A stretch of 64,000 bases of DNA from a virus (lineage: Duplodnaviria > Caudoviricetes), in the IMG/VR virus record IMGVR_UViG_3300014204_000004, positions 39,710 to 103,709 of that record. One strand, 5' to 3'. A program made the position numbers and the translations under genes. Of this stretch, positions 6,671-29,903 are shown one piece after another. Each line of letters opens with the position of its first letter. Position 1 is the first letter of the stretch. Below the pieces are notes generated by a model. It was not told the DNA's origin. It did not search any database and worked only from the letters and a program-made list of their open reading frames with translations.

Positions 6671-8773
6671 CTATACCTCCTCGTTTTGTGTTACTACTGG
6701 TTCGCTTATTGCCGTGTTATGAATAAGCAGTTGCTCTAACGTGTCTACGATTAACGGTATCAAGTTACGAGCAACGCTTACGTCCTGTCTGAATATGTTA
6801 GGCATGCCCACGTTCAGTGATATTGAGTTGACGTTCTGGTGCGTCACAACTTCATGCGTTGATTGGTCTCTGAACACTACGACAGTAGGTGCCGCACCTA
6901 AGGGCGGTGCGCCTTCTGCCACTGCTTCGGCATCGTTGATGCGATGAATGTCTGTCATGTACTCTCTCAATGCTACAGGTGCAGGTACAGGAAGATTCGA
7001 TACGAACCCTCTCGCTCTTCTGTAACCAAAGAGTACGAGGTTCACATGCTTGAGCAATCTTTCCGGTATTATTCTCTCACGCAGAGCACTTGTTAGACTG
7101 TTTCTCACGCGCAGGTCCCATTCATCTCTGTACGTGAGATGCAAAGCTCTTACAGAGGGGCTATCTGGTACCTCCTCATCATAATCGTCGTCCTCATCGC
7201 ACTCTACACCAGGCTGAGAATCTTCTGGCATTGCGTTTACTCTGCCAAGAGGATGTTGTGCTGATACTCTGCCTGTGTTTATGGTCGCGTTAGGGTCGGC
7301 AGTCAGCATAGGCTTATCTACTCCCCACTCGACAAGCATCCTGTCGTTACGTGCGCCCACTCTTACGAGCACGTTGTTTATGAAATTCAGGTACGTCTGC
7401 GCCTCTTCTGGTTCGAGACCTGCTGTATCAACAAGCTCTTTGAACCCAATTGGATACTTGTACGTGAACTCTTTTACTCCGTTAACGAATCTGTTGGTGA
7501 TATTCTGTGCTATCTTGTACGCAAGCCTCGTTATCTCAGGTGTCATGAAGATTAAAGCAGGAGCACTGCGATACTCGAAGCCCCAACCCTTAGTCTCATA
7601 GGCACCGAGTGTCTTGTAACCTGAACGTGCCTTACCTGACAGATTGAGAGTAGGTGCGCCGATGAAATCGTCCAACATCTTAACCAGATGTTGAGGCGGT
7701 ACATATGTTCTACCGACACCGATGTGTATGTGACCACCTAAAGGATAACTGTGGCCTGCTACACCTAAGTCATACGCGGGGTACATGCGATAGAACCTTT
7801 CAAGCAGGTGCTTGAGAATATCGACAGCTTCTTCGGGTGTAGTTGCGGCACGAGGTCTAAGCTCGACCTGTGAACCAGCACCGTCTCTGCCTAACCCACC
7901 TTCAGGGTGCGACGTGGTTTTTATCTTGCTTGAAGCGTTAACCACCTCGTTGCTGTACCGACTTACAAGCTCGAACTCTGGGTCAGAGCCTAACTGAATC
8001 ATAAGTCTGGGGCGTCTGCGCTTTCTGATAATGACTCTCTGAAGAGGCATGAGGTCGAGTCTGTCTACTAACGCATCATAGAGTATCTTGTCGATGAAGC
8101 GTATGCCATAAGCAGAGTGCGACCAGTCACCAACGATGAGTATGTTGTTGTTCGGTATGTACAGACCCATGAATATATTGCGCCCTCTTGCAGGTCTGTC
8201 GCTACTCTCGCCATAGCGCACTGATACACGCATGACAATCTTTACCGCCTCGAACACGGTAACAAAAGGGCTAATGCCGTTCTGCTCGTCTGTCAGTTCT
8301 TCGTTGATAATCATAGCCTCTAGTGCCGGCTTGGCTGAGGTGGCTCTGTGCGAATCGTTGTCGTAAGAGAACTCGCCTCTCTTGGGCTTCTCTGCTACCA
8401 TATCGAAGAACTTTCCATACAGCAGATGTTTGTACGTTGCAAAGTGCGTGAGTCTTGGCATACGAACCGTGCGTATTATCTTGAAGCGTACAGTGTCACG
8501 CAGGTTCTTTGGTTCGCAGAAAGCGTACACAGTATTGTTCCAGTTTTCGCTGAGATTGAGGTACGCGTGTGCTCTGCATTTGTTGAAGTAGTCCTTCATA
8601 ATCTCGAACAGACGACCAACGTATTCTACGTTGTTGTGGTCCGGGAGTTGCAGGCTACCGTCAGCGTTTCTGTTAGGGTCTCTGACCCAATCGGGCAACT
8701 GTGGTATGACTATACGAGTAGGTCTACTGTCTGATACTTCGTTTCCCATATGATTGATGGTCACGTCACTCAC
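6671..8773 (-). CDS. phiEco32-like COOH-NH2 ligase type 2 (amidoligase) with long N- and C-terminal extensions
   Basis: LGSDPEF, GRDG..VELRP, GGHIHIG and GFEYRS motifs. Confidence 0.85.
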   Translation of the reverse strand: MSDVTINHMGNEVSDSRPTRIVIPQLPDWVRDPNRNADGSLQLPDHNNVEYVGRLFEIMKDYFNKCRAHAYLNLSENWNNTVYAFCEPKNLRDTVRFKIIRTVRMPRLTHFATYKHLLYGKFFDMVAEKPKRGEFSYDNDSHRATSAKPALEAMIINEELTDEQNGISPFVTVFEAVKIVMRVSVRYGESSDRPARGRNIFMGLYIPNNNILIVGDWSHSAYGIRFIDKILYDALVDRLDLMPLQRVIIRKRRRPRLMIQLGSDPEFELVSRYSNEVVNASSKIKTTSHPEGGLGRDGAGSQVELRPRAATTPEEAVDILKHLLERFYRMYPAYDLGVAGHSYPLGGHIHIGVGRTYVPPQHLVKMLDDFIGAPTLNLSGKARSGYKTLGAYETKGWGFEYRSAPALIFMTPEITRLAYKIAQNITNRFVNGVKEFTYKYPIGFKELVDTAGLEPEEAQTYLNFINNVLVRVGARNDRMLVEWGVDKPMLTADPNATINTGRVSAQHPLGRVNAMPEDSQPGVECDEDDDYDEEVPDSPSVRALHLTYRDEWDLRVRNSLTSALRERIIPERLLKHVNLVLFGYRRARGFVSNLPVPAPVALREYMTDIHRINDAEAVAEGAPPLGAAPTVVVFRDQSTHEVVTHQNVNSISLNVGMPNIFRQDVSVARNLIPLIVDTLEQLLIHNTAISEPVVTQNEEV

Positions 8774-8810
8774 TTTGTATCACCTCACTGTTTGTTTTTG
8801 ATGATAATAA

Positions 8811-8840
8811 AGTTTATCATAAAGTTCGTATTAAAGTCAA
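8811..8840 (-). promoter_or_regulatory. sigma70-like promoter
   Basis: TTGACT-18nt-TAAACT with TGn extension, upstream of the amidoligase. Confidence 0.55.
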
Positions 8841-8880
8841 TAACAAAAAACTCTAATAAATTCGATATGTTAATCGATAA

Positions 8881-8923
8881 GAGAGAAAAGAAAAGGGTGG
8901 TCAACTTAACGTCAACCACCCCT
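8881..8923 (-). terminator. intrinsic terminator
   Basis: AAGGGTGGT/ACCACCCTT stem followed by TTCTTTTCTC on the - strand after the GGCT gene. Confidence 0.65.
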
Positions 8924-8941
8924 TGCCGGATTCAATTAGGT

Positions 8942-9376
8942 TTAATCTTCAAGGCTGTTGTCTGGTGCTCCGAAGCCTGCGATGTATTCTATCCAGTCTT
9001 CAATCAGAGTCTCTTCGCGTAAGATGTGCTCCTGTGGCAGGACGTGATAGATGATGCCTTTGACAGTCAACACATTGCCTGCGTCATTTGTTATCTCAAC
9101 AGCGATAACCTCTTTTTTGTAACCGAAAGGTAGCTCCAGATTGTCGAGCATCTTTTCGACCACTGCGTTTACTTCGTATGCTTCTACCACGAATGAGTGC
9201 TCGCCTGTGCCTTCTCTGTCGAGCACAGCTTTCGGGTAACCGCCGACGTTGTACATCTTGCCTTTTACTCTGCCTTTGCCGAGACAGGTCACTTTGTTCG
9301 TTGTGCCTTTCTCCTGAAGTAGATAGTGATTGTAACTACCTTTGCGTAGCGTACCATAAACAAATGCGTTTTTCAC
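8942..9376 (-). CDS. gamma-glutamylcyclotransferase (AIG2-like)
   Basis: FVYGTLRKG, GGYP and LDNLE motifs. Confidence 0.9.
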   Translation of the reverse strand: MKNAFVYGTLRKGSYNHYLLQEKGTTNKVTCLGKGRVKGKMYNVGGYPKAVLDREGTGEHSFVVEAYEVNAVVEKMLDNLELPFGYKKEVIAVEITNDAGNVLTVKGIIYHVLPQEHILREETLIEDWIEYIAGFGAPDNSLED

Positions 9377-9660
9377 GTAAACCTCCCCTTGAACATATGA
9401 TGTTGTAAGAGGTGAGCGTTCTGCCTTCTGACGACATTGATTTGAATTGCAATAGGGTAGTCTATGTGCTCTCGTATCTTTGCAAGCCCGTCACGCATTG
9501 CCTTTTCAGTCTGATACACTATCGTAATCTGATTGCTGGCTCTAAACTCTTTCGTATTGCCAGCGTACAGCTTGATAGTGTTGACCTCTGGTAGCTGAGA
9601 TATCGTTATGATAACCTCGAAGTAGTCATGCTCTGGCCATTCTTTGAAGTCTACCTTCAC
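9373..9660 (-). CDS. hypothetical protein
   Basis: 95-aa ORF coupled to the GGCT gene. Confidence 0.55.
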   Translation of the reverse strand: MKVDFKEWPEHDYFEVIITISQLPEVNTIKLYAGNTKEFRASNQITIVYQTEKAMRDGLAKIREHIDYPIAIQINVVRRQNAHLLQHHMFKGRFT

Positions 9661-9673
9661 GCTTTCTTCCTTC

Positions 9674-10087
9674 TCACGCGTGTCTTCTTCTCACGCGTGT
9701 CTTCTTCTCAGGCACAGGCTCTTCTTCTACCACAGGTTCAAAAACAGGCTCTTCTTCAACAACAGGCTCTTCAACAACAGGCTCTTCGTCAACTGCAGGT
9801 ACTTCCTCTTCGACTGGTTCAGATTCTTCCTCTTCGATTGGTTGTTTAGATTCTTTCTCTTCGACTTCTTTGAATCGTATCTGAGGTGCATATCCCGGCA
9901 TATTGTGCGTGTCTTTGGTCCACAACTTGCAGATGTTCTCTGCTACTTCTACCGCCTCTGCTTTGTCCTCGAAGTGTTTGTACTCTTTGAGGTAGCAGGC
10001 AGGTAGCATATCGATGGAAGGTTCGCTGTTTGTTACCTCTACTATTCTCAACCCGCCAGTTTTGTACTGTCTTGTTACTGTCCACAT
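9674..10087 (-). CDS. hypothetical protein with acidic EEEPV repeats
   Basis: AGGAGG RBS; repeated (E)EEPV(V) followed by a basic tail. Confidence 0.65.
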   Translation of the reverse strand: MWTVTRQYKTGGLRIVEVTNSEPSIDMLPACYLKEYKHFEDKAEAVEVAENICKLWTKDTHNMPGYAPQIRFKEVEEKESKQPIEEEESEPVEEEVPAVDEEPVVEEPVVEEEPVFEPVVEEEPVPEKKTRVRRRHA

Positions 10088-10102
10088 ACTTTCCTCCTAT
10101 GA

Positions 10103-10150
10103 TAGAATTATTAGGCGACGTTGATAAGAACCGCCGCCTAAAAAATTCTA
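10103..10150 (-). other. long RNA hairpin closing the pentamer array (3' end or processing signal)
   Basis: TAGAATTTTTTAGGCGGCG ... CGTCGCCTAATAATTCTA; one stem position is G.U on the - strand but an A-C mismatch on the + strand. Confidence 0.65.
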
Positions 10151-10171
10151 CAACATAGCGTAGATAAAAGC

Positions 10172-10913
10172 AAACTGAACAGTAAGTGACCTAGGTTAGC
10201 TCTGCCTAAACAGTGCGTTACGACCGGGACTGTGCAAAACCACAACAAAGCCCTGCCCTACTCTACCTGCACTATACATTAGCGCACTTTACTTTACCCC
10301 TCACTTTGCTCAACCAAACTTTACTGTCGCCTCGCACTTACTTAACTCTGCGATGAGACACCTTACCCTTGCCGTACATAACCGAGCTTTGCTCACACAG
10401 TACAGTGCTAAACCACACCATGACATTACTTTACAGCACCTTGCGACACCTTCACAGTACCAGAACAGCATATAACACTGCGGTGCCATACCTAAACTTC
10501 ACTTAAGTGCGCTCCGCTTTTACATTACAACACAAAACTATACTCATACATCAGTATACTGAACCATACCTGCACGATATATAACTAAACAATGCCGTAC
10601 CAACGCCTTACGTGACAGTGCTGTGCCATTACCATACATCATCAAACAATGCAGTACCTTCGCCTTCACGTAACATCTCTATACGATGCAAAACCACCAC
10701 GCAACACTGCCGTGCAATACCATAACTGAACCATCCATACAATACCTTTACGTGACATCTCTATACGATGCAATTACTTTACGTATCTATACAGTGCCTC
10801 TGCGATACTATTCTTTACCCTTACCACAAGAAACTGTGCAATACCAACGCTATGCTATGCTACGCCTTTACGAAACATTGGGTAGTATAACCATACCTTT
10901 ACTTCACTTTACG
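10172..10913 (-). ncRNA. putative guide-RNA array of NGY-NN pentamers in mostly 26/31-nt blocks
   Basis: About 740 nt with GT/GC nearly every 5 nt on the - strand (e.g. GGCAC AGCAC TGTCA CGTAA GGCGTT, 10627-10602); starts about 20 nt after the Cas7-like stop; no credible ORF. Confidence 0.75.
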
Positions 10914-10932
10914 GTGTCGAGCTTGCGCTAGA

Positions 10933-11583
10933 CTATGCTGTGAGCCTTTCTTTGACAGGCTCGATGGCGAGTACCTCGAAGCGGCCGTAACCGCCGTTTC
11001 TGAACTGACCAAGACCAGCAAGCTCACCATAACTTAGCAACTCGATGAGCATGTCCCAGGTTATCTCTTTGTTCTTGAGAAGTTTGATGGTGAAGCCGAG
11101 TATCAGACCTGCGTTGACATAATCACTACGTGCCAGTGTTACACGCGGGCCCTGAGGTGTCATAACGCGAAGAGGTCTTTCTATGTAGCCGTCAGGCTGG
11201 CTACAGCCGAGGTAGATGCGACGAGGTGTGACGAACACGTACTTGTCTACCTTGCCACGTATACCCTTCATCTTCTCCATTGTGGCGGGTTTGCCTTTCT
11301 TTTCTTTCTCGACCAGAAAGGTCTGCTGAAGAACTTCGCCGGCATTCTTGAGAAATCCGCGAATCATGTAGTCATATATGAAAAGCCGGTCGGTTTCTTT
11401 CTCTCTGTGAAACCCCGTCCAGCCCTTTTCCTCTGTCTTGTCTACTGTCGCGCTCTCGTCTTCTTCGATATTGGCAGGCTTCTTCGACTCGATGTAGGTC
11501 TTGTAAACTTCTGGGTCTTTTGATACTGTGCCGAGCATCTCTGTTACTAACTGAATATTTACCATGCGTTCATCAAAAATCAT
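10933..11583 (-). CDS. stand-alone Cas7/RAMP-like RNA-binding protein
   Basis: N-terminal strand VNIQLVTEMLG, helix IYDYMIRGFLKNA (cf. IPGSSLKGALR) and C-terminal Gly-rich loop GLGQFRNGGYGRF. Confidence 0.8.
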   Translation of the reverse strand: MIFDERMVNIQLVTEMLGTVSKDPEVYKTYIESKKPANIEEDESATVDKTEEKGWTGFHREKETDRLFIYDYMIRGFLKNAGEVLQQTFLVEKEKKGKPATMEKMKGIRGKVDKYVFVTPRRIYLGCSQPDGYIERPLRVMTPQGPRVTLARSDYVNAGLILGFTIKLLKNKEITWDMLIELLSYGELAGLGQFRNGGYGRFEVLAIEPVKERLTA

Positions 11584-11635
11584 TCGCCACCCCTTTTAGT
11601 ATTTTTATTTTTTGACACGTGGTACCACCACAGCC

Positions 11636-11955
11636 AGTAAAGACTTTACCTCACCTCCTTAACGATTACACTACAACACAATACCGTAACTACTCTGTGC
11701 ATAACCTCAGCAGAACATCGCATTGCCAAAACTGTGCCTTGCTATTCATTACCTTAGCCGAACTGTTACTTAACCTTCACTTTACTTTATCCACTAAACA
11801 TAACAAAAGGAGAAAACAAACGCTCTCACTTTACCGCTAGTGAATAACTTTGCAAGAGGAGAATTACGAACACCATTACACTACCAAACTTTACAATGGA
11901 GGTGTTGATATGAAAAACTAAACAGGCGATACTGTTACTTTGCTCTCCTCTTGCA
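11636..11955 (-). ncRNA. second NGY-NN pentamer array upstream of the Cas7-like gene
   Basis: Blocks GGTAA TGAAT AGCAA GGCAC AGTTTT / GGCAA TGCGA TGTTC TGCTGA / GGTTA TGCAC AGAGT AGTTAC / GGTAT TGTGT TGTAG TGTAAT (11753-11665); 12-bp inverted repeat at 11851-11862 and 11944-11955. Confidence 0.65.
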
Positions 11956-11974
11956 TTATGTATTACACATCATA

Positions 11975-13324
11975 CTACAACTCAGGCTTATCATCAATGT
12001 TCATGTTCAGAGCATAAGCCTTGAGCAGACCCTCGTGCGTCAGTACCTTTTCGGCAGGTACAACCTCTGTACGATAGCCGTCGGGATAGTGGTCGAGATA
12101 TGATTCTTTGGCGTAGAAGGTCAGACCCATCTCGTTGGTTACAACTCCTTTCTTCAGTACAGCGCCGTCTTCGGCCATAGCGTAGACGAATGTTGGGTAC
12201 GCGGTACGCATCGGGAAGATGTACACTACAGGCTTGTCAACGTCAGTGGTGTCAAGGTCAGGTAGCAAATCGTTCTTGGAAAAGAAATTCTTGAACTCTT
12301 TCTCACTCATGGTAATACCCTCAGGTGTTGTAGCAGGCACACGTTTAGGTGCTTGCTTCACCGGTTTGTTGAGAGCAAATAGCCTGTTCATGTGCACCTC
12401 ATCCCATATCATGGAATACATGTTTCGCTCTCCGGGCACACACTTGATGCCAAGTTTATCGCTAAGTATGTGCGCTAAATCTGCGAGTGAACCTTGAAGA
12501 ACGTGCGTTGGCGATACCATTTCGTTGTACCGTCTTCTTATCCAGAACAGACGCAACATGCCGCCCTTTACTTTCTTTTCTCTGTGTAGCTTGTACATGG
12601 TTTTGATAAGAGCAGACTCAAGCTGGTCAGACAGTGATAGTGGTACTGGTGGCTCAGCGACAGGATTGAGATTCAGAAATTGGTCGGTAACGTCGGTTGT
12701 TTTGCCGTTCGATGTTACGTGTAACAATTTCAATAGAGGAATCTCTTTCTTGCTGAGAACTTTGAAGCATATGATTCTGCCAGTAGGCTTTGTCACCTTG
12801 CTAAAGATGTGAGGCAAGATTCTGCACAGAGCATTAAGGTGATTACTGCATTGGCCGTACTTCTCTTTGCTTGCAATAATCACATCATCGGTAGTGAAGG
12901 TTTCAACGCGCAGTGCCAGATTGAATATGGCATTCAGAAGGTTCGCGGTCTGTGTCAAACTGCTGGGCTTGTTTGTTGGTATGATGATGCTGTCGCCGTT
13001 GACAAGTTTCAATCTATTTGATGTTGGTCTCTTGCTATCTTTATCGCCATTGTTTCTGTACTTCTCGAACGTCTCGTAACGTAGCGGCTTGATGTGTTCA
13101 GAGACCATCATTATGTATTCTGTACGTGAGCCTACGCCGAAGGCCTTCACGACGTGCGGATATAGTCGTACATACTCCTTCAGTATGTCTGATATGTACG
13201 ATGCACTGACCTTAAGCTGTTTGGCTATTTTGTAAGGATTGAATGTCTCGCTAACTGACGAGCATGTAGCCAATGATTCGTGTATGTATCGCACGACCTT
13301 GTTGAACTTTGGTGATGTTGACAT
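11975..13324 (-). CDS. multi-domain winged-helix-like DNA-binding protein
   Basis: PYKIAKQLKVSASYISDILKEY HTH-like motif plus a second HTH-like unit; paralogous to 13355-14215. Confidence 0.55.
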   Translation of the reverse strand: MSTSPKFNKVVRYIHESLATCSSVSETFNPYKIAKQLKVSASYISDILKEYVRLYPHVVKAFGVGSRTEYIMMVSEHIKPLRYETFEKYRNNGDKDSKRPTSNRLKLVNGDSIIIPTNKPSSLTQTANLLNAIFNLALRVETFTTDDVIIASKEKYGQCSNHLNALCRILPHIFSKVTKPTGRIICFKVLSKKEIPLLKLLHVTSNGKTTDVTDQFLNLNPVAEPPVPLSLSDQLESALIKTMYKLHREKKVKGGMLRLFWIRRRYNEMVSPTHVLQGSLADLAHILSDKLGIKCVPGERNMYSMIWDEVHMNRLFALNKPVKQAPKRVPATTPEGITMSEKEFKNFFSKNDLLPDLDTTDVDKPVVYIFPMRTAYPTFVYAMAEDGAVLKKGVVTNEMGLTFYAKESYLDHYPDGYRTEVVPAEKVLTHEGLLKAYALNMNIDDKPEL

Positions 13325-13354: not shown

Positions 13355-14215
13355 TCAGCTACCTTGTGATTCTTCCCATCGTATCTTCAACTCTTCCTTA
13401 TGCTCGTCTGCAAGAATAAGAAAAGAGTCAGCAATCTCTTCAGCCGCCATACGACCACGAACAATCTGTACCTCGGCTGATATGAGTCTCATTACTTTGT
13501 CTTTAAGAGTGAGAGGTCTCTCGTTGGTGCGCTTCTCAACTCTTTCGCCGTTGGGTTCTTGCTTGAGCAGTGCGTTCTTAAGGCCCCGTATGACATCATT
13601 CGGCATGTTGATAGCATCAGATGTGTCACCACGCATAATGGGAAACATTCTTCGCAACGCTGAGAAGAACTCTTTTACTGTGGTCTCACCAAGATGAGTG
13701 GTCGTGGTTACATCTGAGACCGTCACGCGGTTGTTTTCTTCGGCTATCTCCAAGAAGGCATCACGCATGCGCTCGATGTTAGCAAAGGCGGCAGGCGTAT
13801 TGGTTGGCACATGAATGATGACTCGTCCTCTGTGCTGTATTGAATACAGTCTGTTGGGTACGCTTGTCTTGTTGCCAGGCGTATCGAGTTCACTGTTGTG
13901 TGCCGCACGATACTGGTCATAGTCAGGCCATCTTACCTCTTGTGGCTTGAAACATCTGAACTTCACACCCTGCCCGAACATGGCAATTCTTTTGAAGATG
14001 CCTCTGTTCATGTCATGCAGTGTTTGGCAAATGTCGGTCACGTAGGTTTTGCTGGCGTCTGTATTGTCGACCACGCTGTTGACATGTATGGTGGTGGTAA
14101 TTCTTCGCGTGCCGATTAGCTCATTCTTAATATGACTGATTACTTTGTTGTATACTTCTAATCCCTCACTCATCTTTCTCCTCCTCTTCTTCGTAATGAT
14201 GACCACGATGTTCAA
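13355..14215 (-). CDS. winged-helix-like protein, paralog of the downstream gene
   Basis: Shared NKV..., Y(V/I).DI, NRL...PTN.P and T.xDV motifs. Confidence 0.5.
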   Translation of the reverse strand: MNIVVIITKKRRRKMSEGLEVYNKVISHIKNELIGTRRITTTIHVNSVVDNTDASKTYVTDICQTLHDMNRGIFKRIAMFGQGVKFRCFKPQEVRWPDYDQYRAAHNSELDTPGNKTSVPNRLYSIQHRGRVIIHVPTNTPAAFANIERMRDAFLEIAEENNRVTVSDVTTTTHLGETTVKEFFSALRRMFPIMRGDTSDAINMPNDVIRGLKNALLKQEPNGERVEKRTNERPLTLKDKVMRLISAEVQIVRGRMAAEEIADSFLILADEHKEELKIRWEESQGS

Positions 14216-14816
14216 GCATATACAATGAGGAACTGATATGCTTATCGAACACGTTGCCTATTTTGTGGGTTAAACACCCGCACTTGAACACATCGCCATT
14301 AGGCACCACGAACAGTTCGTCACATCTGCAACCTTCTGTGGCTTCTGGTAGCTCAACAGCCCTGCCACATTTCTTTATGTTGCCACTGACATCACGTATC
14401 TCTCGAAAGTCGTTATCAGACTGACCATAATTGAACGCAGTCTTCTTCGGTCTTTCAAATGCCTTTGAGACCTCTGGGTCTATGGGTTCATGGTACACAT
14501 CGAGCGACAGGCACACAGACAGTATTCCATGTCGAGCAATGTTGGCAAGTCTTAAAGCCTCCTTCTTATTCTTGCCGTTAGTAGCGAGCCATATAGGACC
14601 TTCAGGTGTTCTGCCCTGAGCTATACCCACCATCTGCCAGAACTTAGGATGTATAGTTGGCTCACCACCACCGATAGATATATACTCACCGCCGTCTTCA
14701 GCAAGGTCACATGCCTTCGTGAAGGTCTTCAGACTCATGTCCTCGCCTACATCGGTACAAGCAAAGCAACAGTGAGCACATCGCATATTGCACCGCGTGG
14801 TTATCTGTATATACAT
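14166..14816 (-). CDS. radical SAM protein
   Basis: CNMRCAHC (CxxxCxxC), GGGEPTIHP, ATNG and SLD motifs; twitch-like C..LFV.PNGDVFKC. Confidence 0.92.
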   Translation of the reverse strand: MYIQITTRCNMRCAHCCFACTDVGEDMSLKTFTKACDLAEDGGEYISIGGGEPTIHPKFWQMVGIAQGRTPEGPIWLATNGKNKKEALRLANIARHGILSVCLSLDVYHEPIDPEVSKAFERPKKTAFNYGQSDNDFREIRDVSGNIKKCGRAVELPEATEGCRCDELFVVPNGDVFKCGCLTHKIGNVFDKHISSSLYMLEHRGHHYEEEEEKDE

Positions 14817-22938: not shown

Positions 22939-23131
22939 CTGTCACCTCGTTTGTCTTTTCGTAACACACCTCACAGTACAACTTGCCATCTTCCTCACTG
23001 ACAATGCTATCGTCTACATTGTACCACTGACCACACTTGGCGCATTTGAACTCGTCAACGTAGGTACGGTAGGTCATGTCGCTACTTCTGCGCCTCATAC
23101 CATCTTCACTGTACCTCACCTCACGGGGCAT
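22931..23131 (-). CDS. small zinc-ribbon protein
   Basis: CAKC...YCEVCY. Confidence 0.6.
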   Translation of the reverse strand: MPREVRYSEDGMRRRSSDMTYRTYVDEFKCAKCGQWYNVDDSIVSEEDGKLYCEVCYEKTNEVTDD

Positions 23132-23355
23132 GTCGTCACCTCACGCAGTATTTCTCTGTCTCGTAGAATCTTCACGTACTGGTTATACACAGACTGTTTG
23201 TTGCCTCGCAGACCAAACTCTTTCTTGATTGCACCATAAGCAGACTTGCCACTGCTATGTGCCATGCCTTTAATCTCAAGTGTAAGAGCCGCCTTAAGAG
23301 CGAGTAAACGGTAAGCTTCGATACTTGAACCAGTTAAAACTTGCGTATCATTCAT
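23116..23355 (-). CDS. hypothetical protein
   Basis: AAGGAGG RBS before the ATG at 23355 (MNDTQVL...). Confidence 0.6.
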   Translation of the reverse strand: MNDTQVLTGSSIEAYRLLALKAALTLEIKGMAHSSGKSAYGAIKKEFGLRGNKQSVYNQYVKILRDREILREVTTCPVR

Positions 23356-24227
23356 GTGCCCTCCTTCGGCGCGTATAAAAAAGAGAGGTGAGGTAGACGA
23401 GGAGAGGTGAGCTTGTCGTTTCATCAGGCCACTCATGATCGCCCTCCGCGGTAGCTACGCGCTACACTCACCTCGACACATTCTAATGCCACCTCAAGGT
23501 TGCGACCCTTGCTCAGTAAAGATGACAATTGTGCCACTACCTCATCTACCTCTTATAACCCCTCAAATACAACCACTACTCTTGTACTACGCCTCGATAT
23601 TATAAACTACTCTGGTTACTACGGATCAGTTTGTATACTCTCACAACTCAAGTAAGCCACGAACTCAGCGTGGTACTCACTACACAAATGGTGCAGGTTC
23701 AATGTGAGCTAGAATAAATTCTACCTCTGCAACATAACCACACTCACCAGTGGTACATCTATATGCACCACGTATTACAAAGTTTAATACCTGAACTACC
23801 TAAAACCTCGTATTAAAATGCACGTAAAACCTCATTAAACCAATAACTCAGGTTATTAATACCTGTACATGATATTACCTCCTTATATTACCACTAACCA
23901 AACCACATCAGCCACCTAACCACAGTCTAATAAGGTAGAATTGAACCAGTCTAGCCACGAAAAGAGCATACTACGGGAAGCACTGATAAACCTGAATAGT
24001 ATAACTTCCCTGCGTATGTATACTTATACTCGTTATTTCTTTACTTACCTCTTTAACCTCTATTCTTTTCAATCTACTCTTGCATATTCACACACAGTAG
24101 AGAACATAACAAAATGAGGTAAGGGCATAGTCAAGTATAGCCAAAAGTATGCCAGGTTATAGTCAAAATTACGTTTCCATGTATAAAACGTGTATAAAAG
24201 GTGGCACGGTCTAATCCTTATTTGTAC

Positions 24228-27269: not shown

Positions 27270-28091
27270 CTACTTGCTGAGTTTGATGTACCTTACACAG
27301 ACATGAACCTCTTTTGCTACGTAGACATACGGTCTGTCGCTCAGTACTTCAACTACGATTGCTTTACCTTTGTACTGTGCTCTGAACTTCTCGACAATCG
27401 CTTTGTCCTTCGCTGTTGCTCTTATCTCGAACTCTTCGAGAGCCTTTGCGTTCTTGCCTGCGTTCTTTCTGATGAAGACGGTGAGGTTGTGAGTATCGGT
27501 GGTGAGTTTGCGTTTCAACACGGTGACTGATGCTTTGTCGATGAGGTACACTTTGTCGGTCTTAGGGTCAAGCTCGACCTTGTTGTTGTACTTTGCAAGC
27601 GACTCTCTCACGGTGACTTCTGAACGGATGAAGTTGTGTTTTGGTGCTTCTACCTTCTTTGTACCTTTCTTCATGGCTTTCTCCTTCTTGTTAGTAGTAG
27701 TCGCTTTAACAGCGACCTTCTTGGTTGCAACTGCAGGCTTCTTAACTTCTGCTTTCTTCGTTGTCTTCTTCACGAGTGCTACCTCCTTTTTGGTGTTTGC
27801 TTTCTTGACAGGTGCTTTCACTGCGGTCTTCTTGGTTGCTACTGCTTTGGTCTCAACTGCGGCTGTCTCGGCTTTCTTTGTTGTCTTAGGCATGGTGGTC
27901 TCCTTTTTAGTATTTGTTTTGGTATCTAATACTGCGTTTGCTTTTGCGAGGTACGCCTCAACTGCCAGACGCTCTTCCTCTTTCTTCTTCTTCTGGACGT
28001 CATACACGGTTTCGATTGGTGCAGGTGCAGGTGTCTTCTTTGTTGCAACGACGGGTGCTACGACTTTTGTGCTCTTTCTTGCGATTGCCAT
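27270..28091 (-). CDS. histone-like Lys/Ala/Thr-rich protein with a globular C-terminal domain
   Basis: Repeated ATKK/TTKKAE; three internal in-frame SD+start sites. Confidence 0.7.
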   Translation of the reverse strand: MAIARKSTKVVAPVVATKKTPAPAPIETVYDVQKKKKEEERLAVEAYLAKANAVLDTKTNTKKETTMPKTTKKAETAAVETKAVATKKTAVKAPVKKANTKKEVALVKKTTKKAEVKKPAVATKKVAVKATTTNKKEKAMKKGTKKVEAPKHNFIRSEVTVRESLAKYNNKVELDPKTDKVYLIDKASVTVLKRKLTTDTHNLTVFIRKNAGKNAKALEEFEIRATAKDKAIVEKFRAQYKGKAIVVEVLSDRPYVYVAKEVHVCVRYIKLSK

Positions 28092-28168
28092 GATTATCTA
28101 CCTCCAAGTAGTTGTCTGCGAGGTGGCGTATCTTTCAACACCACCTCTTGAATTGTCGTGTTCAAGTG

Positions 28169-28933
28169 CTAGTCTGCGTCTATCTGCTCATCTAAATCGG
28201 TATACGGGTTACCTTCAGGCATATCGATGCCACAGTGGTCTTTGTAAGTCATTGCACACTCGTTGCACATCCGACCAGCGAATATACCAAAGCTGTACCT
28301 TCGGTCAACGGTTGCTTTTACTTCACCACACTTTCTGCAGGTGTACTCGCTCTGCTTACCAATGTACAGGCTCTTGAGTTTGAGGCACTGTTCTTCAGTA
28401 AACAAGACGCGTGACGGTTCAGCAGGTAACATCTCAAGGTCTGGCAATAAGGTGGGCAGGTCCAAGTCAATGGCTACCTTTGTTACCTCTTCGACGCTGT
28501 TAACCTCGACATCGGTCTTCAGCGTTCTCCAATCACCACTCTGTGTTTCAAAGAATATCGCGTACTTCATTTTGTTACCTCCTTGTTTGATTGCTACCTT
28601 CTTGTTCGACTCATACTCCGTCCATACAGCAAACCCTATACTGAACTTGCTGTCGTACCACCCAAAGTAAATCTTCTCTCCGGTCTTGTAAGTAATCTCA
28701 ATGACTGTCTTGTTGTCGATGTGCGCGTCAATGCCTCTCTGCTGAGCCTCAGCTATGAGATTGTCTCTGAGCTTTGAGAACTCATCGTTGTGCTTGTACT
28801 CAACCTCAAGCACTCTCTTGTGTACGCCGCTTGTGTATGCGTAGAACGCAGTTACTTCTGCATCGAAGGGCACGAACAACCGCAAATCCCTCCAGTAATG
28901 AAACCTTTTTCCGTTAATCTCTATCATTTCCAT
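28169..28933 (-). CDS. hypothetical protein with C-terminal zinc finger
   Basis: GGAGG RBS; CRKC...CNEC. Confidence 0.6.
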   Translation of the reverse strand: MEMIEINGKRFHYWRDLRLFVPFDAEVTAFYAYTSGVHKRVLEVEYKHNDEFSKLRDNLIAEAQQRGIDAHIDNKTVIEITYKTGEKIYFGWYDSKFSIGFAVWTEYESNKKVAIKQGGNKMKYAIFFETQSGDWRTLKTDVEVNSVEEVTKVAIDLDLPTLLPDLEMLPAEPSRVLFTEEQCLKLKSLYIGKQSEYTCRKCGEVKATVDRRYSFGIFAGRMCNECAMTYKDHCGIDMPEGNPYTDLDEQIDAD

Positions 28934-29903
28934 TTGCTACCTCCATTGAATAGATTGTCTCGTTTGGTAGAAGCGCACTCTCACCACGTGCAGGTAGAGA
29001 TTTAGAGAGCAGAGGTACACTTAGTGCGCTCTAAGTCGCACATCGGTGTACCTCGATTAGATTGTCAGGGTTTAAACAACCCTGTTAGCCAAGCATCTCT
29101 TTGAGGCACTTGTCGCATGTATTGGTGTTCTTCGGGTCATCGACCTTACCACCACATACACAGCAACCACTCATACCCTTGCCAGCCCTTAGCCTTCTGA
29201 ACGATGCTCTCACTGCTTCGACCAGTACTGTCTGTGGCACGCTACCAGTTACTACGATTACAGGATTCTTCATTGTGTTACTCCTTTTAGTTTTCTGTGT
29301 TTCTCTCTCTGCTACCAGCCTCTTCGATTACAAAAGTGTTGACACGTTCTACGATGCTGTCACTCATGCCTGCACCATAGCTCAGTGTAGGTACATGTGT
29401 TGCACATGTTACACACCTTGCACACATGTAGCACTCACAGTTCAGTACTACCTCTTCAGCGATGCTCTTCAACTCTTCTGCAACGACGTAATCTTTACAC
29501 ATCATGCACCTCCCAATGCTAATGTCATTGCCACAAAGCACATCACTACAATCAATAGACCATAAAAGAACTCACTCATTGCAACCTCCTTTTGTATTAT
29601 GCTTCCATGAAACGAATAGAACGTCTTTACCAATCTTACGATGACGTGACCTGTCAGTACTTCTGCACACTTGTCAGGATGAATACACTCACAGCAACGT
29701 GTACCACAGTTGATGAACCACTTAGATGCTGTCATGCACTACCTCCATTGATTGATGATTAACTCTACTTTCTGTACCACTTACCAACGATGCTCATGCA
29801 CCAGTGCATTGCTATCTTGCTACCAACTACATACTTCAGTACTCTATACAGCTTCACCCAATGCGTCGCTTTCACTACTCTCTTCATGTCTCTCTCCTTT
29901 AGT

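What the first reader, a model, noticed from the sequence alone, without database searches (positions are those of the whole stretch)
10172..10913. Higher-order grammar of the downstream array: pentamer runs closed by one hexamer give 26/31-nt blocks
Seen on the - strand, consecutive blocks: GGCAC AGCAC TGTCA CGTAA GGCGTT (10627-10602, 26 nt); GGTAC GGCAT TGTTT AGTTA TATAT CGTGCA (31); GGTAT GGTTC AGTAT ACTGA TGTATG (26); AGTAT AGTTT TGTGT TGTAA TGTAAA (26); AGCGG AGCGC ACTTA AGTGA AGTTTA (26); GGTAT GGCAC CGCAG TGTTA TATGC TGTTCT (31). There are roughly 25 blocks, most beginning with GGY right after the 1-nt phase slip. Block lengths are nearly all 5n+1. Inference: the hexamer punctuates individual guides or filament registers, acting like a CRISPR repeat encoded in phase rather than in sequence.
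Basis: partly seen in the sequence, partly recalled or inferred. Interest (0 to 1): 0.88.

Follow-up and report, generated by a model that had tools for sequence, protein, structure and literature searches.

The report
Staggered guide-RNA array of phage VIPR
The five-letter rhythm with one extra letter about every 26 letters is real; it is the guide-RNA array of a VIPR system, a phage-borne CRISPR relative first described in 2026 preprints, so this is a large example of a known kind.

Summary
On the - strand, 10938-10175 is a chain of 148 units (x-G-Y-N-N): 116 steps of 5 nt, 28 of 6. This gives a Fourier peak at 5.20 nt (power 23.6; shuffles reach 3.9 at most). The 6-nt steps are evenly spaced: 20 of 31 blocks are 26 or 31 nt (p 4e-10 against geometric spacing). 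After a 6-nt step the next unit starts with GGY in 21/28 cases, against 22/116 after a 5-nt step.

The adjacent gene, 10933-11583 (-), encodes a lone Cas7-like RAMP. It is homologous to the Vipr protein of phage SUSP1 (profile-profile probability 91%). Of 44 related phage loci, 37 carry the same kind of array on the gene strand.

This is a VIPR system (bioRxiv 10.64898/2026.04.26.720920 and .720927). It belongs to the YNNNG class, has no 3' tails and shows no conserved accessory gene. The junction reads G|GY: the last in-phase G of one run abuts the G-Y of the next. That most likely corresponds to the preprint's "staggered vrRNA arrays".

It remains open whether the junctions separate guides or only adjust filament register. 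No targets were found and no RNA data exist. The scan has noted this same grammar in at least 7 other genomes.

The parts
10933..11583 (-). vipr gene: lone Cas7-like RAMP, 216 aa
   Evidence: The AlphaFold2 model has pLDDT 83. Foldseek top hits are Cmr4, Csm3, type VII Cas7 and Cas7-11, E about 2e-6. hhalign of the family profile against the SUSP1 Vipr family profile gives Prob 91%, E 1.1e-6, over 129 columns covering helix-1, thumb and G-loop. The G-loop Q193-F194-R195 aligns with SUSP1 D177-W178-R179.
10175..10938 (-). Downstream vrRNA array: 148 units x-G-Y-N-N, with about 29-31 runs separated by +1 junctions (G|GY). It begins in the last codons of vipr.
11644..11785 (-). Upstream vrRNA array: 28 units, same grammar (runs of 11, 11, 11, 26, 21, 21, 21 nt and so on)
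   Evidence: Best-chain score is 33.3, against a maximum of 11.1 in 200 shuffles. Local Fourier power is 5.4 at 11668-11771.
11969..11997 (-). Sigma-70-like promoter match upstream of both arrays and the gene (weak; consensus match only)
   Evidence: TTGATG-17-TATGAT, 9 of 12. The number of such sites in the region equals the shuffle expectation, so this is only a candidate. No terminator-like site lies between the gene and the array.

Best explanation
The stretch is the main guide-RNA (vrRNA) array of a VIPR system carried by a 103.7-kb tailed phage from a landfill metagenome.

Shown in relatives and inferred here: the array is co-transcribed with vipr, and Vipr protomers bind one pentamer each. 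One protomer holds the G and the next holds the pyrimidine. The two following letters (N4 N5) are presented to read double-stranded DNA by the published rule of two letters read, one skipped.

This clade differs from the characterised type II systems in several ways. Only G-Y is fixed (YNNNG class). This goes with a Q in place of the G-loop Asp that reads the first G in SUSP1. There is no 3' tail or pseudoknot and no conserved accessory gene. The pentamers form one uninterrupted tract.

The 'hexamer' is a +1 register junction of the form G|GY: the last in-phase G of one run is followed directly by the G-Y of the next. The tract is therefore a concatenation of modules G(YNNNG)n, with n mostly 4-7 and mode 5.

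I read these junctions as the 'stagger' of the staggered VIPR arrays. On this reading they delimit units of filament assembly or guide modules of about one filament turn. That last step is inference.
For: Protein:
- RAMP/Cas7 fold.
- Homology to the SUSP1 Vipr family at Prob 91%, with thumb Arg and G-loop aligned.

Array and its link to the gene:
- 37 of 44 distinct related loci have a periodic array next to the gene.
- 47 of 48 arrays have G on the coding strand, and most start at the stop codon.
- No other conserved neighbour gene was found.
- The family is phage-borne.
- The array sequence turns over quickly while the rhythm is kept.
- There is no RNA secondary structure.

Published VIPR features read:
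- Pentamer repeats with GGY fixed.
- Alternative YNNNG repeats.
- Staggered arrays.
- One protomer per repeat.
- 5 or 6 subunits per turn.

Junction:
- Over 291 junctions the only strong mark is G (0.89 against 0.30) just before the next anchor. The extra letter X6 has background composition.
- Successive block sizes are uncorrelated, and phase error grows with distance as in block-shuffled arrays. This points to a local rule, not a rigid lattice.
- SUSP1 vrRNAs run 11-16 units without any internal 6-nt step, so the junctions are specific to this architecture.
Against: - No expression or processing data exist for this phage or its close relatives.
- No target was found under the published decoding rule.
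- A module of 5 units has only 10 guide letters, far below the 9-16 repeats of characterised vrRNAs.
- Duplications and the one indel pair observed do not respect module boundaries.
- N4 is about 50% A in all arrays, so the 'free' letters are not fully free.
- The fig. S18 image is not held, so the identity of 'staggered' with this grammar is my reading of a legend.
- The type (I-VII) could not be assigned.
Confidence: 0.55

Rival explanations
1. Same VIPR system, but the +1 junctions are not guide boundaries. One continuous Vipr filament reads through them, and the extra G is a bulge inserted about once per helical turn. The bulge takes up a small mismatch between RNA path length and protomer spacing. 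Long runs, or the whole 148-unit tract, would then act as one guide.
For: - The modal spacing of 5-6 units equals the published 5 (target-bound) or 6 (free) subunits per turn.
- Spacing is regular but resets locally with no compensation, as expected if strain is relieved at each insertion.
- Duplications ignore block boundaries.
- Blocks alone carry too little information to be specific.
- The preprint notes that vrRNA length sets filament length and that up to 30 repeats occur.
Against: - Proteins 82% identical (window and L036) have different block series, with modes of about 5 against 6-9 units. Periods of long arrays range from 5.13 to 5.21 with no link to protein phylogeny (Mantel p 0.30). 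Both are odd for a purely geometric constraint.
- SUSP1 tolerates 16 units without any insertion.
- Uniform NNx decoding across junctions found no 10- or 11-unit match in IMG/VR.
Confidence: 0.3
2. A protein-coated RNA without guide function. The periodic tract would merely titrate, store or nucleate Vipr, or serve as a decoy for a rival phage's Vipr, as satellite-borne solo vrRNAs do.
For: - No targets were found.
- N4 is A-biased.
- Array length varies from about 130 to about 820 nt among relatives.
- Decoy vrRNAs are reported in 10.64898/2026.10.15.759431 (abstract).
Against: The decoys described there are still guides. The variable letters have near-maximal entropy (1.6-1.9 bits). Only a small fraction of possible targets could be searched.
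Confidence: 0.1
3. A DNA-level element. On this reading 5.2 bp is half a B-DNA turn (10.4 bp), marking a site where a protein decorates alternate faces of the duplex.
For: The period of 5.13-5.21 is close to 10.4/2. I considered this before finding the VIPR papers.
Against: - 47 of 48 arrays keep G on the gene's coding strand.
- There is no power at 10.4.
- The phase wanders like a renewal process.
- The neighbour gene is homologous to an RNA-binding protein whose relatives co-purify with such RNAs.
Confidence: 0.03

Closest known systems
VIPR systems with 'staggered' vrRNA arrays and alternative YNNNG repeats (bioRxiv 10.64898/2026.04.26.720920, Results, Methods and fig. S17/S18 legends)
   Same: Both have a lone small RAMP gene in a phage, flanked by non-coding tracts of pentamer repeats on the gene strand. 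Only G and Y are fixed. Runs abut with a one-letter register shift and there is no spacer element between them.
   Different: The preprint text gives no run lengths, no statistics and no experimental check for staggered arrays. Here runs are 4-7 units, the tract has 148 units (the papers mention up to 30 repeats per vrRNA), and no vap gene is evident. The type could not be assigned.
Type II VIPR of Escherichia phage SUSP1 (vipr 28474-29061, vap1 28031-28471 of NC_028808; vrRNAs in the flanking gaps)
   Same: The proteins are homologous (Prob 91%), with aligned thumb Arg and G-loop. One array lies upstream and a larger one downstream of the gene. Both use pentamer units.
   Different: SUSP1 has GGY fixed, pure 5-nt steps for 11-16 units, a conserved 3' tail with a pseudoknot after each vrRNA, and vap1. 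The window has only G-Y fixed (Q193 in place of D177), no tails and a +1 junction about every 5 units.
Class 1 CRISPR backbone (Cas7/Csm3/Cmr4 on crRNA)
   Same: Both have the RAMP fold with thumb and G-loop, a helical protein filament along an RNA, and periodic displacement of bases.
   Different: In CRISPR the period is exactly 6 nt with no fixed letters in the guide. Repeats and spacers are delimited by sequence, other Cas subunits are present, and cas1/cas2 handle acquisition. None of these is present here.
TIGR-Tas arrays
   Same: Both are non-CRISPR tandem guide arrays found in phages.
   Different: TIGR-Tas uses a Nop-domain protein, has an 18-nt entropy period by the Evo-PIN preprint and, from my own knowledge, 36-nt tigRNAs with two spacers. 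There is no RAMP.

Membership tests
VIPR | Lone small RAMP protein (single RRM core, thumb, G-loop) homologous to Vipr | tested here: met
   The AF2 model hits Cas7-type RAMPs. hhalign A1 against the SUSP1 Vipr family A2 gives Prob 91%, E 1.1e-6, 129 columns. A single-sequence comparison aligned only the G-loop.
VIPR | Adjacent non-coding tandem pentanucleotide repeats with a fixed GGY or related consensus (NNNGG, YNNNG, NNNNG) and variable letters | tested here: met
   G is 90%, Y 96%, and the other three positions carry 1.6-1.9 bits. There are 148 + 28 units. The same pattern is seen in 37 of 44 related loci.
VIPR | Mainly carried by phages or proviruses | tested here: met
   The window encodes TerL, portal, major head and tail proteins. 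Relatives were found in IMG/VR and in gut phage records. Only 8 MAG contigs were found among 185,579 species genomes.
VIPR | vrRNA is transcribed and bound by Vipr as a helical filament | not testable with these tools
   No RNA run holds this phage. The complex prediction gave no verdict and is not counted.
VIPR | Variable letters specify a DNA target by the 1-nt skip rule | tested here: inconclusive
   There was no excess over shuffled controls in the phage's own genome and 50 loci. Hits to 8-unit seeds in IMG/VR were at chance level, and 10- and 11-unit seeds gave none. Only a small part of the search space was covered.
VIPR | vap accessory gene next to vipr (typical, not universal) | tested here: not met
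   No gene family other than vipr is shared by more than a few of 40 loci within 3 kb (ORFs of 70 aa or more). The published scheme has six vap genes for seven types, so this does not exclude membership.
VIPR type II (SUSP1-like) | Each vrRNA of 9-16 GGY/NN repeats ends in a conserved structured 3' tail | tested here: not met
   There is no recurring tail, MFE z-scores lie between -1.1 and +1.5, and Rfam gives nothing at E <= 1. The first G of GGY is not conserved except at junctions.
CRISPR-Cas | Direct repeats of 20-40 nt separated by spacers, with cas1/cas2 and further cas genes | tested here: not met
   No such repeats were found and there are no conserved neighbour genes.

The most novel reading that the evidence does not exclude
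The G|GY junctions may be neither processing sites nor noise. They could be a once-per-turn hinge that lets Vipr coat an RNA of about 0.76 kb with roughly 150 protomers. Such a filament would read, or bridge, hundreds of base pairs of DNA in turn-sized modules of about 15 bp. That would be a mode of long-range or combinatorial RNA-guided recognition not covered by the characterised 9-16-repeat vrRNAs.
Probability: 0.2. Interest if true: 0.55.

Novelty: new member of a known kind. Interest (0 to 1): 0.3.

Why it matters
VIPR is a very recent addition to RNA-guided systems, and only its type II form has been worked out. This locus and its roughly 600 relatives show how a tail-less form is written. 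Only G-Y is fixed, which goes with an Asp-to-Gln change in the G-loop. Runs of about one filament turn are separated by a one-letter register shift.

The figures gathered here give a concrete rule for calling guides in such arrays: run-length distribution, junction profile, lack of long-range phase lock, and absence of the feature in SUSP1. They also pose a clear experimental question: are the junctions RNA ends? As a discovery, it is not new.

Tried and rejected
Searches and annotations that gave nothing:
- Rfam at gathering threshold on the whole window and at E <= 1 on 10000-12000: no match. No tRNAs. No terminator-like sites.
- RNA evidence: no RNA holder is listed for this stretch. The reads laid were contigs of relatives covering parts of the gene only, so they are uninformative.
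- Complex prediction of four Vipr copies: no verdict, not used as evidence.
- First literature searches with Cas7-like, phage and periodicity terms found nothing. The VIPR papers were found only after a lead from earlier notes of this scan.

Hypotheses tested and dropped:
- Half-turn-of-DNA reading of the 5.2 period: dropped, see rivals.
- Structured RNA: arrays fold no better than shuffles on either strand.
- Strict 26-nt superperiod: rejected. There is no power at 26, 13 or 6.5 nt, and periods of long arrays in relatives range from 5.13 to 5.215.
- Rigid global lattice: rejected. There is no negative serial correlation of block sizes (r +0.04, null -0.06 +/- 0.05), and phase error grows with lag.
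- Period tracking protein phylogeny: not seen (Mantel r 0.04, p 0.30).
- Blocks as cassettes: duplication starts are not enriched at block starts. The indels between L036 and L037 are 10 nt and 1 nt. The block series is not conserved between the window and L036.

Target searches:
- Same-spacing masks against the phage's own genome.
- blastn of the array against phages and plasmids: best E 3-10.
- NNx decoding of 22 arrays against the own genome plus all loci: four perfect 8-unit matches against 1.8 expected, none extending convincingly. One, from L053 to the vipr gene of L009, reaches 21 of 24 letters but is a GA/AT-repetitive guide.
- IMG/VR seeds.

Full report
**What is in the sequence.**
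Read on the - strand, the non-coding stretch after ORF 10933-11583 has no 3-nt periodicity. It has one sharp Fourier peak at 5.20 nt (power 23.6). The best value at any period in 200 shuffles is 3.9. The peak is carried by G and A, and there is no power at 10.4, 13 or 26 nt. In rows of 26, G falls at positions 2, 7, 12, 17 and 22 over 30 rows.

I ran a dynamic-programming segmentation with independent step priors. It gives 148 units from 10938 to 10175: 116 steps of 5 nt, 28 of 6, two of 4 and one of 7. The unit profile is x-G(90%)-Y(96%)-N4(A 52%)-N5. A second array of 28 units with the same grammar lies upstream of the gene at 11785-11644. Nowhere else in the 103.7-kb genome is periodic in this way.

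**Is the second-order pattern more than chance?**
- In the window, 20 of 31 blocks are 26 or 31 nt, against 14.8% expected for geometric spacing (p 4e-10).
- Shuffling the order of steps never gives as straight a line of anchors (0 of 2000).
- After a 6-nt step, the letter before the next G-Y is G in 21/28 cases, against 22/116 after a 5-nt step. Over six arrays the counts are 104/137 against 155/572 (Fisher 1e-25), with one array (L029) not showing it.

The third, that decoded blocks match nothing, could not be overturned.

**What it belongs to.**
The adjacent 216-aa protein gives a weak Pfam RAMP hit. Its confident AlphaFold2 model (pLDDT 83) matches Cmr4, Csm3, type VII Cas7 and Cas7-11. 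It has about 600 homologues, all unannotated.

I fetched 50 related loci, of which 44 are distinct.
- 37 carry a 5.13-5.21-nt periodic array next to the gene.
- 47 of 48 arrays have G on the coding strand, and most begin at the stop codon.
- No other gene is conserved beside the RAMP gene, and the genomic contexts differ.
- In 185,579 species genomes the family appears only on 8 MAG contigs.
- The window itself encodes terminase, portal, major head and tail proteins.

**The literature.**
My own first searches found nothing. Notes from earlier agents of this scan named VIPR, and I then read the papers.

10.64898/2026.04.26.720920 describes Viral Interference Programmable Repeat systems with these features:
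- A lone ancestral RAMP (Vipr, about 20 kDa), mostly in phages.
- vrRNAs of 9-16 YNNGG repeats, with GGY fixed and NN variable, plus a structured 3' tail.
- dsDNA targets read two letters on, one letter skipped.
- Seven types.
- Alternative NNNGG, YNNNG and NNNNG repeats.
- Array architectures that include "staggered arrays with overlapping vrRNAs".

10.64898/2026.04.26.720927 shows one protomer per repeat. G1 and G2 are held by one protomer (H17, D177; R138, W178) and Y3 by the next (R179). The filament has 6 subunits per turn when free and 5 per turn (25 nt RNA, 15 nt DNA) when target-bound. 10.64898/2026.10.21.760802 reports non-canonical motifs such as WGT/NN. None of the held texts contains "hexa", "6 nt" or "6-nt".

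**Membership, tested here.**
I located the SUSP1 locus in NC_028808: vipr at 28474-29061 and vap1 at 28031-28471. I built a profile of its family.

Profile-profile comparison with the window's family gives Prob 91%, E 1.1e-6 over 129 columns, covering helix-1, thumb and G-loop. SUSP1 R138 aligns with the invariant R152. D177-W178-R179 aligns with the invariant Q193-F194-R195. The residue that reads the first G in SUSP1 is thus replaced in this family, whose arrays have lost that G. That link is my inference.

SUSP1's own vrRNAs run 11-16 units in pure 5-nt steps, and the only 6-nt step is at the tail. Internal +1 junctions are therefore a property of the tail-less architecture, not of VIPR in general.

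**Anatomy of the junction.**
Over 291 junctions in 21 other arrays, these marks stand out:
- G (0.89 against 0.30) just before the next anchor.
- Stricter G and Y on both sides of the junction.
- A mild A preference at the next N4.

The extra letter itself has background composition. The simplest reading is G|GY: the G expected in the old register is present and is followed at once by a new G-Y. The tract is then a concatenation of modules G(YNNNG)n. Over 362 blocks, n is 5 in 118, 6 in 85, 4 in 52 and 7 in 31. [quoted passage not shown]

**Lattice or local rule?**
Successive block sizes are uncorrelated within arrays (r +0.04; permutation null -0.06 +/- 0.05). The mean-square phase error grows with distance much as in block-shuffled arrays. 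Periods of long arrays differ (5.13 to 5.215) without phylogenetic signal.

So there is no rigid underlying lattice, which removes the half-turn-of-DNA idea I first entertained. What remains is a local rule of "a junction after about one filament turn".

**Evolution.**
- A relative with 82% identical Vipr and the same gene order has an array of similar length. Its sequence is essentially unalignable and its block series differs. Four-fold sites in vipr are still 49% identical.
- Two contigs with identical Vipr differ in the array by 6 substitutions, a 1-nt indel and a 10-nt (two-unit) indel.
- Many arrays contain internal duplications of 24-59 nt. The copies differ at G 1%, Y 8%, N4 20%, N5 12% and x 21% of positions. 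Their starts are not tied to block starts.

Arrays therefore grow by local duplication and diverge at the free letters. I saw no sign that whole blocks are the unit of gain and loss.

**Targets.**
All target searches were negative or at chance level; details are listed under what was tried and rejected. The searchable space was small, and the host and its other phages are unknown. This says little either way.

**Verdict.**
The system is a VIPR system, known since April 2026. The second-order grammar most likely corresponds to that work's staggered arrays.

Two questions remain open. One is whether the junctions separate guides (my preferred reading, about 0.55 including VIPR membership at about 0.9). 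The other is whether they merely adjust filament register (about 0.3).

The scan has already noted the same grammar in at least seven other genomes. Those notes are not independent evidence.

Noticed in passing
window 9657-9866 (ORF 9674-10087, -): A 137-aa Glu/Pro/Val-rich protein is built on imperfect 15-33-nt tandem repeats (EEEPV-like). It lies directly downstream of the array and has no family hit. The close relative L036 has a small ORF in the same position (identity not checked).
   Followed up: no
window 6671-9376 and 14166-14816: A cluster of a phiEco32-type COOH-NH2 ligase (700 aa), a gamma-glutamyl cyclotransferase (GGACT) and a 216-aa radical SAM protein flanks the VIPR cassette. 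This looks like a nucleotide or DNA modification module, and the ligase and GGACT keep the same order in L036.
   Followed up: partly
window 23001-24000: This is the only other 1-kb bin in the window with a GC skew near -0.23 together with a positive AT skew, the composition seen in the array. It is not 5.2-periodic.
   Followed up: no
L018 2161-5160: One IMG/VR phage has five separate periodic arrays (220-380 nt each, all about 5.21 nt) spread over 3 kb on both sides of its vipr gene.
   Followed up: no
L053 array, unit 102 onward, against L009 3405-3440: A decoded run of a gut-phage array matches the 3' part of another phage's vipr gene at 21 of 24 NN letters under the NNx rule. The guide is GA/AT-repetitive, so chance is likely, but published VIPRs do target rival vipr genes.
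   Followed up: partly
L040/L043/L046 (Vipr 203 aa; aa identity measured for one pair only: L040 vs L043 84%): Related vipr genes sit in unrelated phage contexts: after a sigma-like gene near a primase-polymerase, before a 460-aa gene and the portal gene, and among small ORFs. Their arrays are 176, 582 and 539 nt. The cassette appears to move between phages as a unit.
   Followed up: partly
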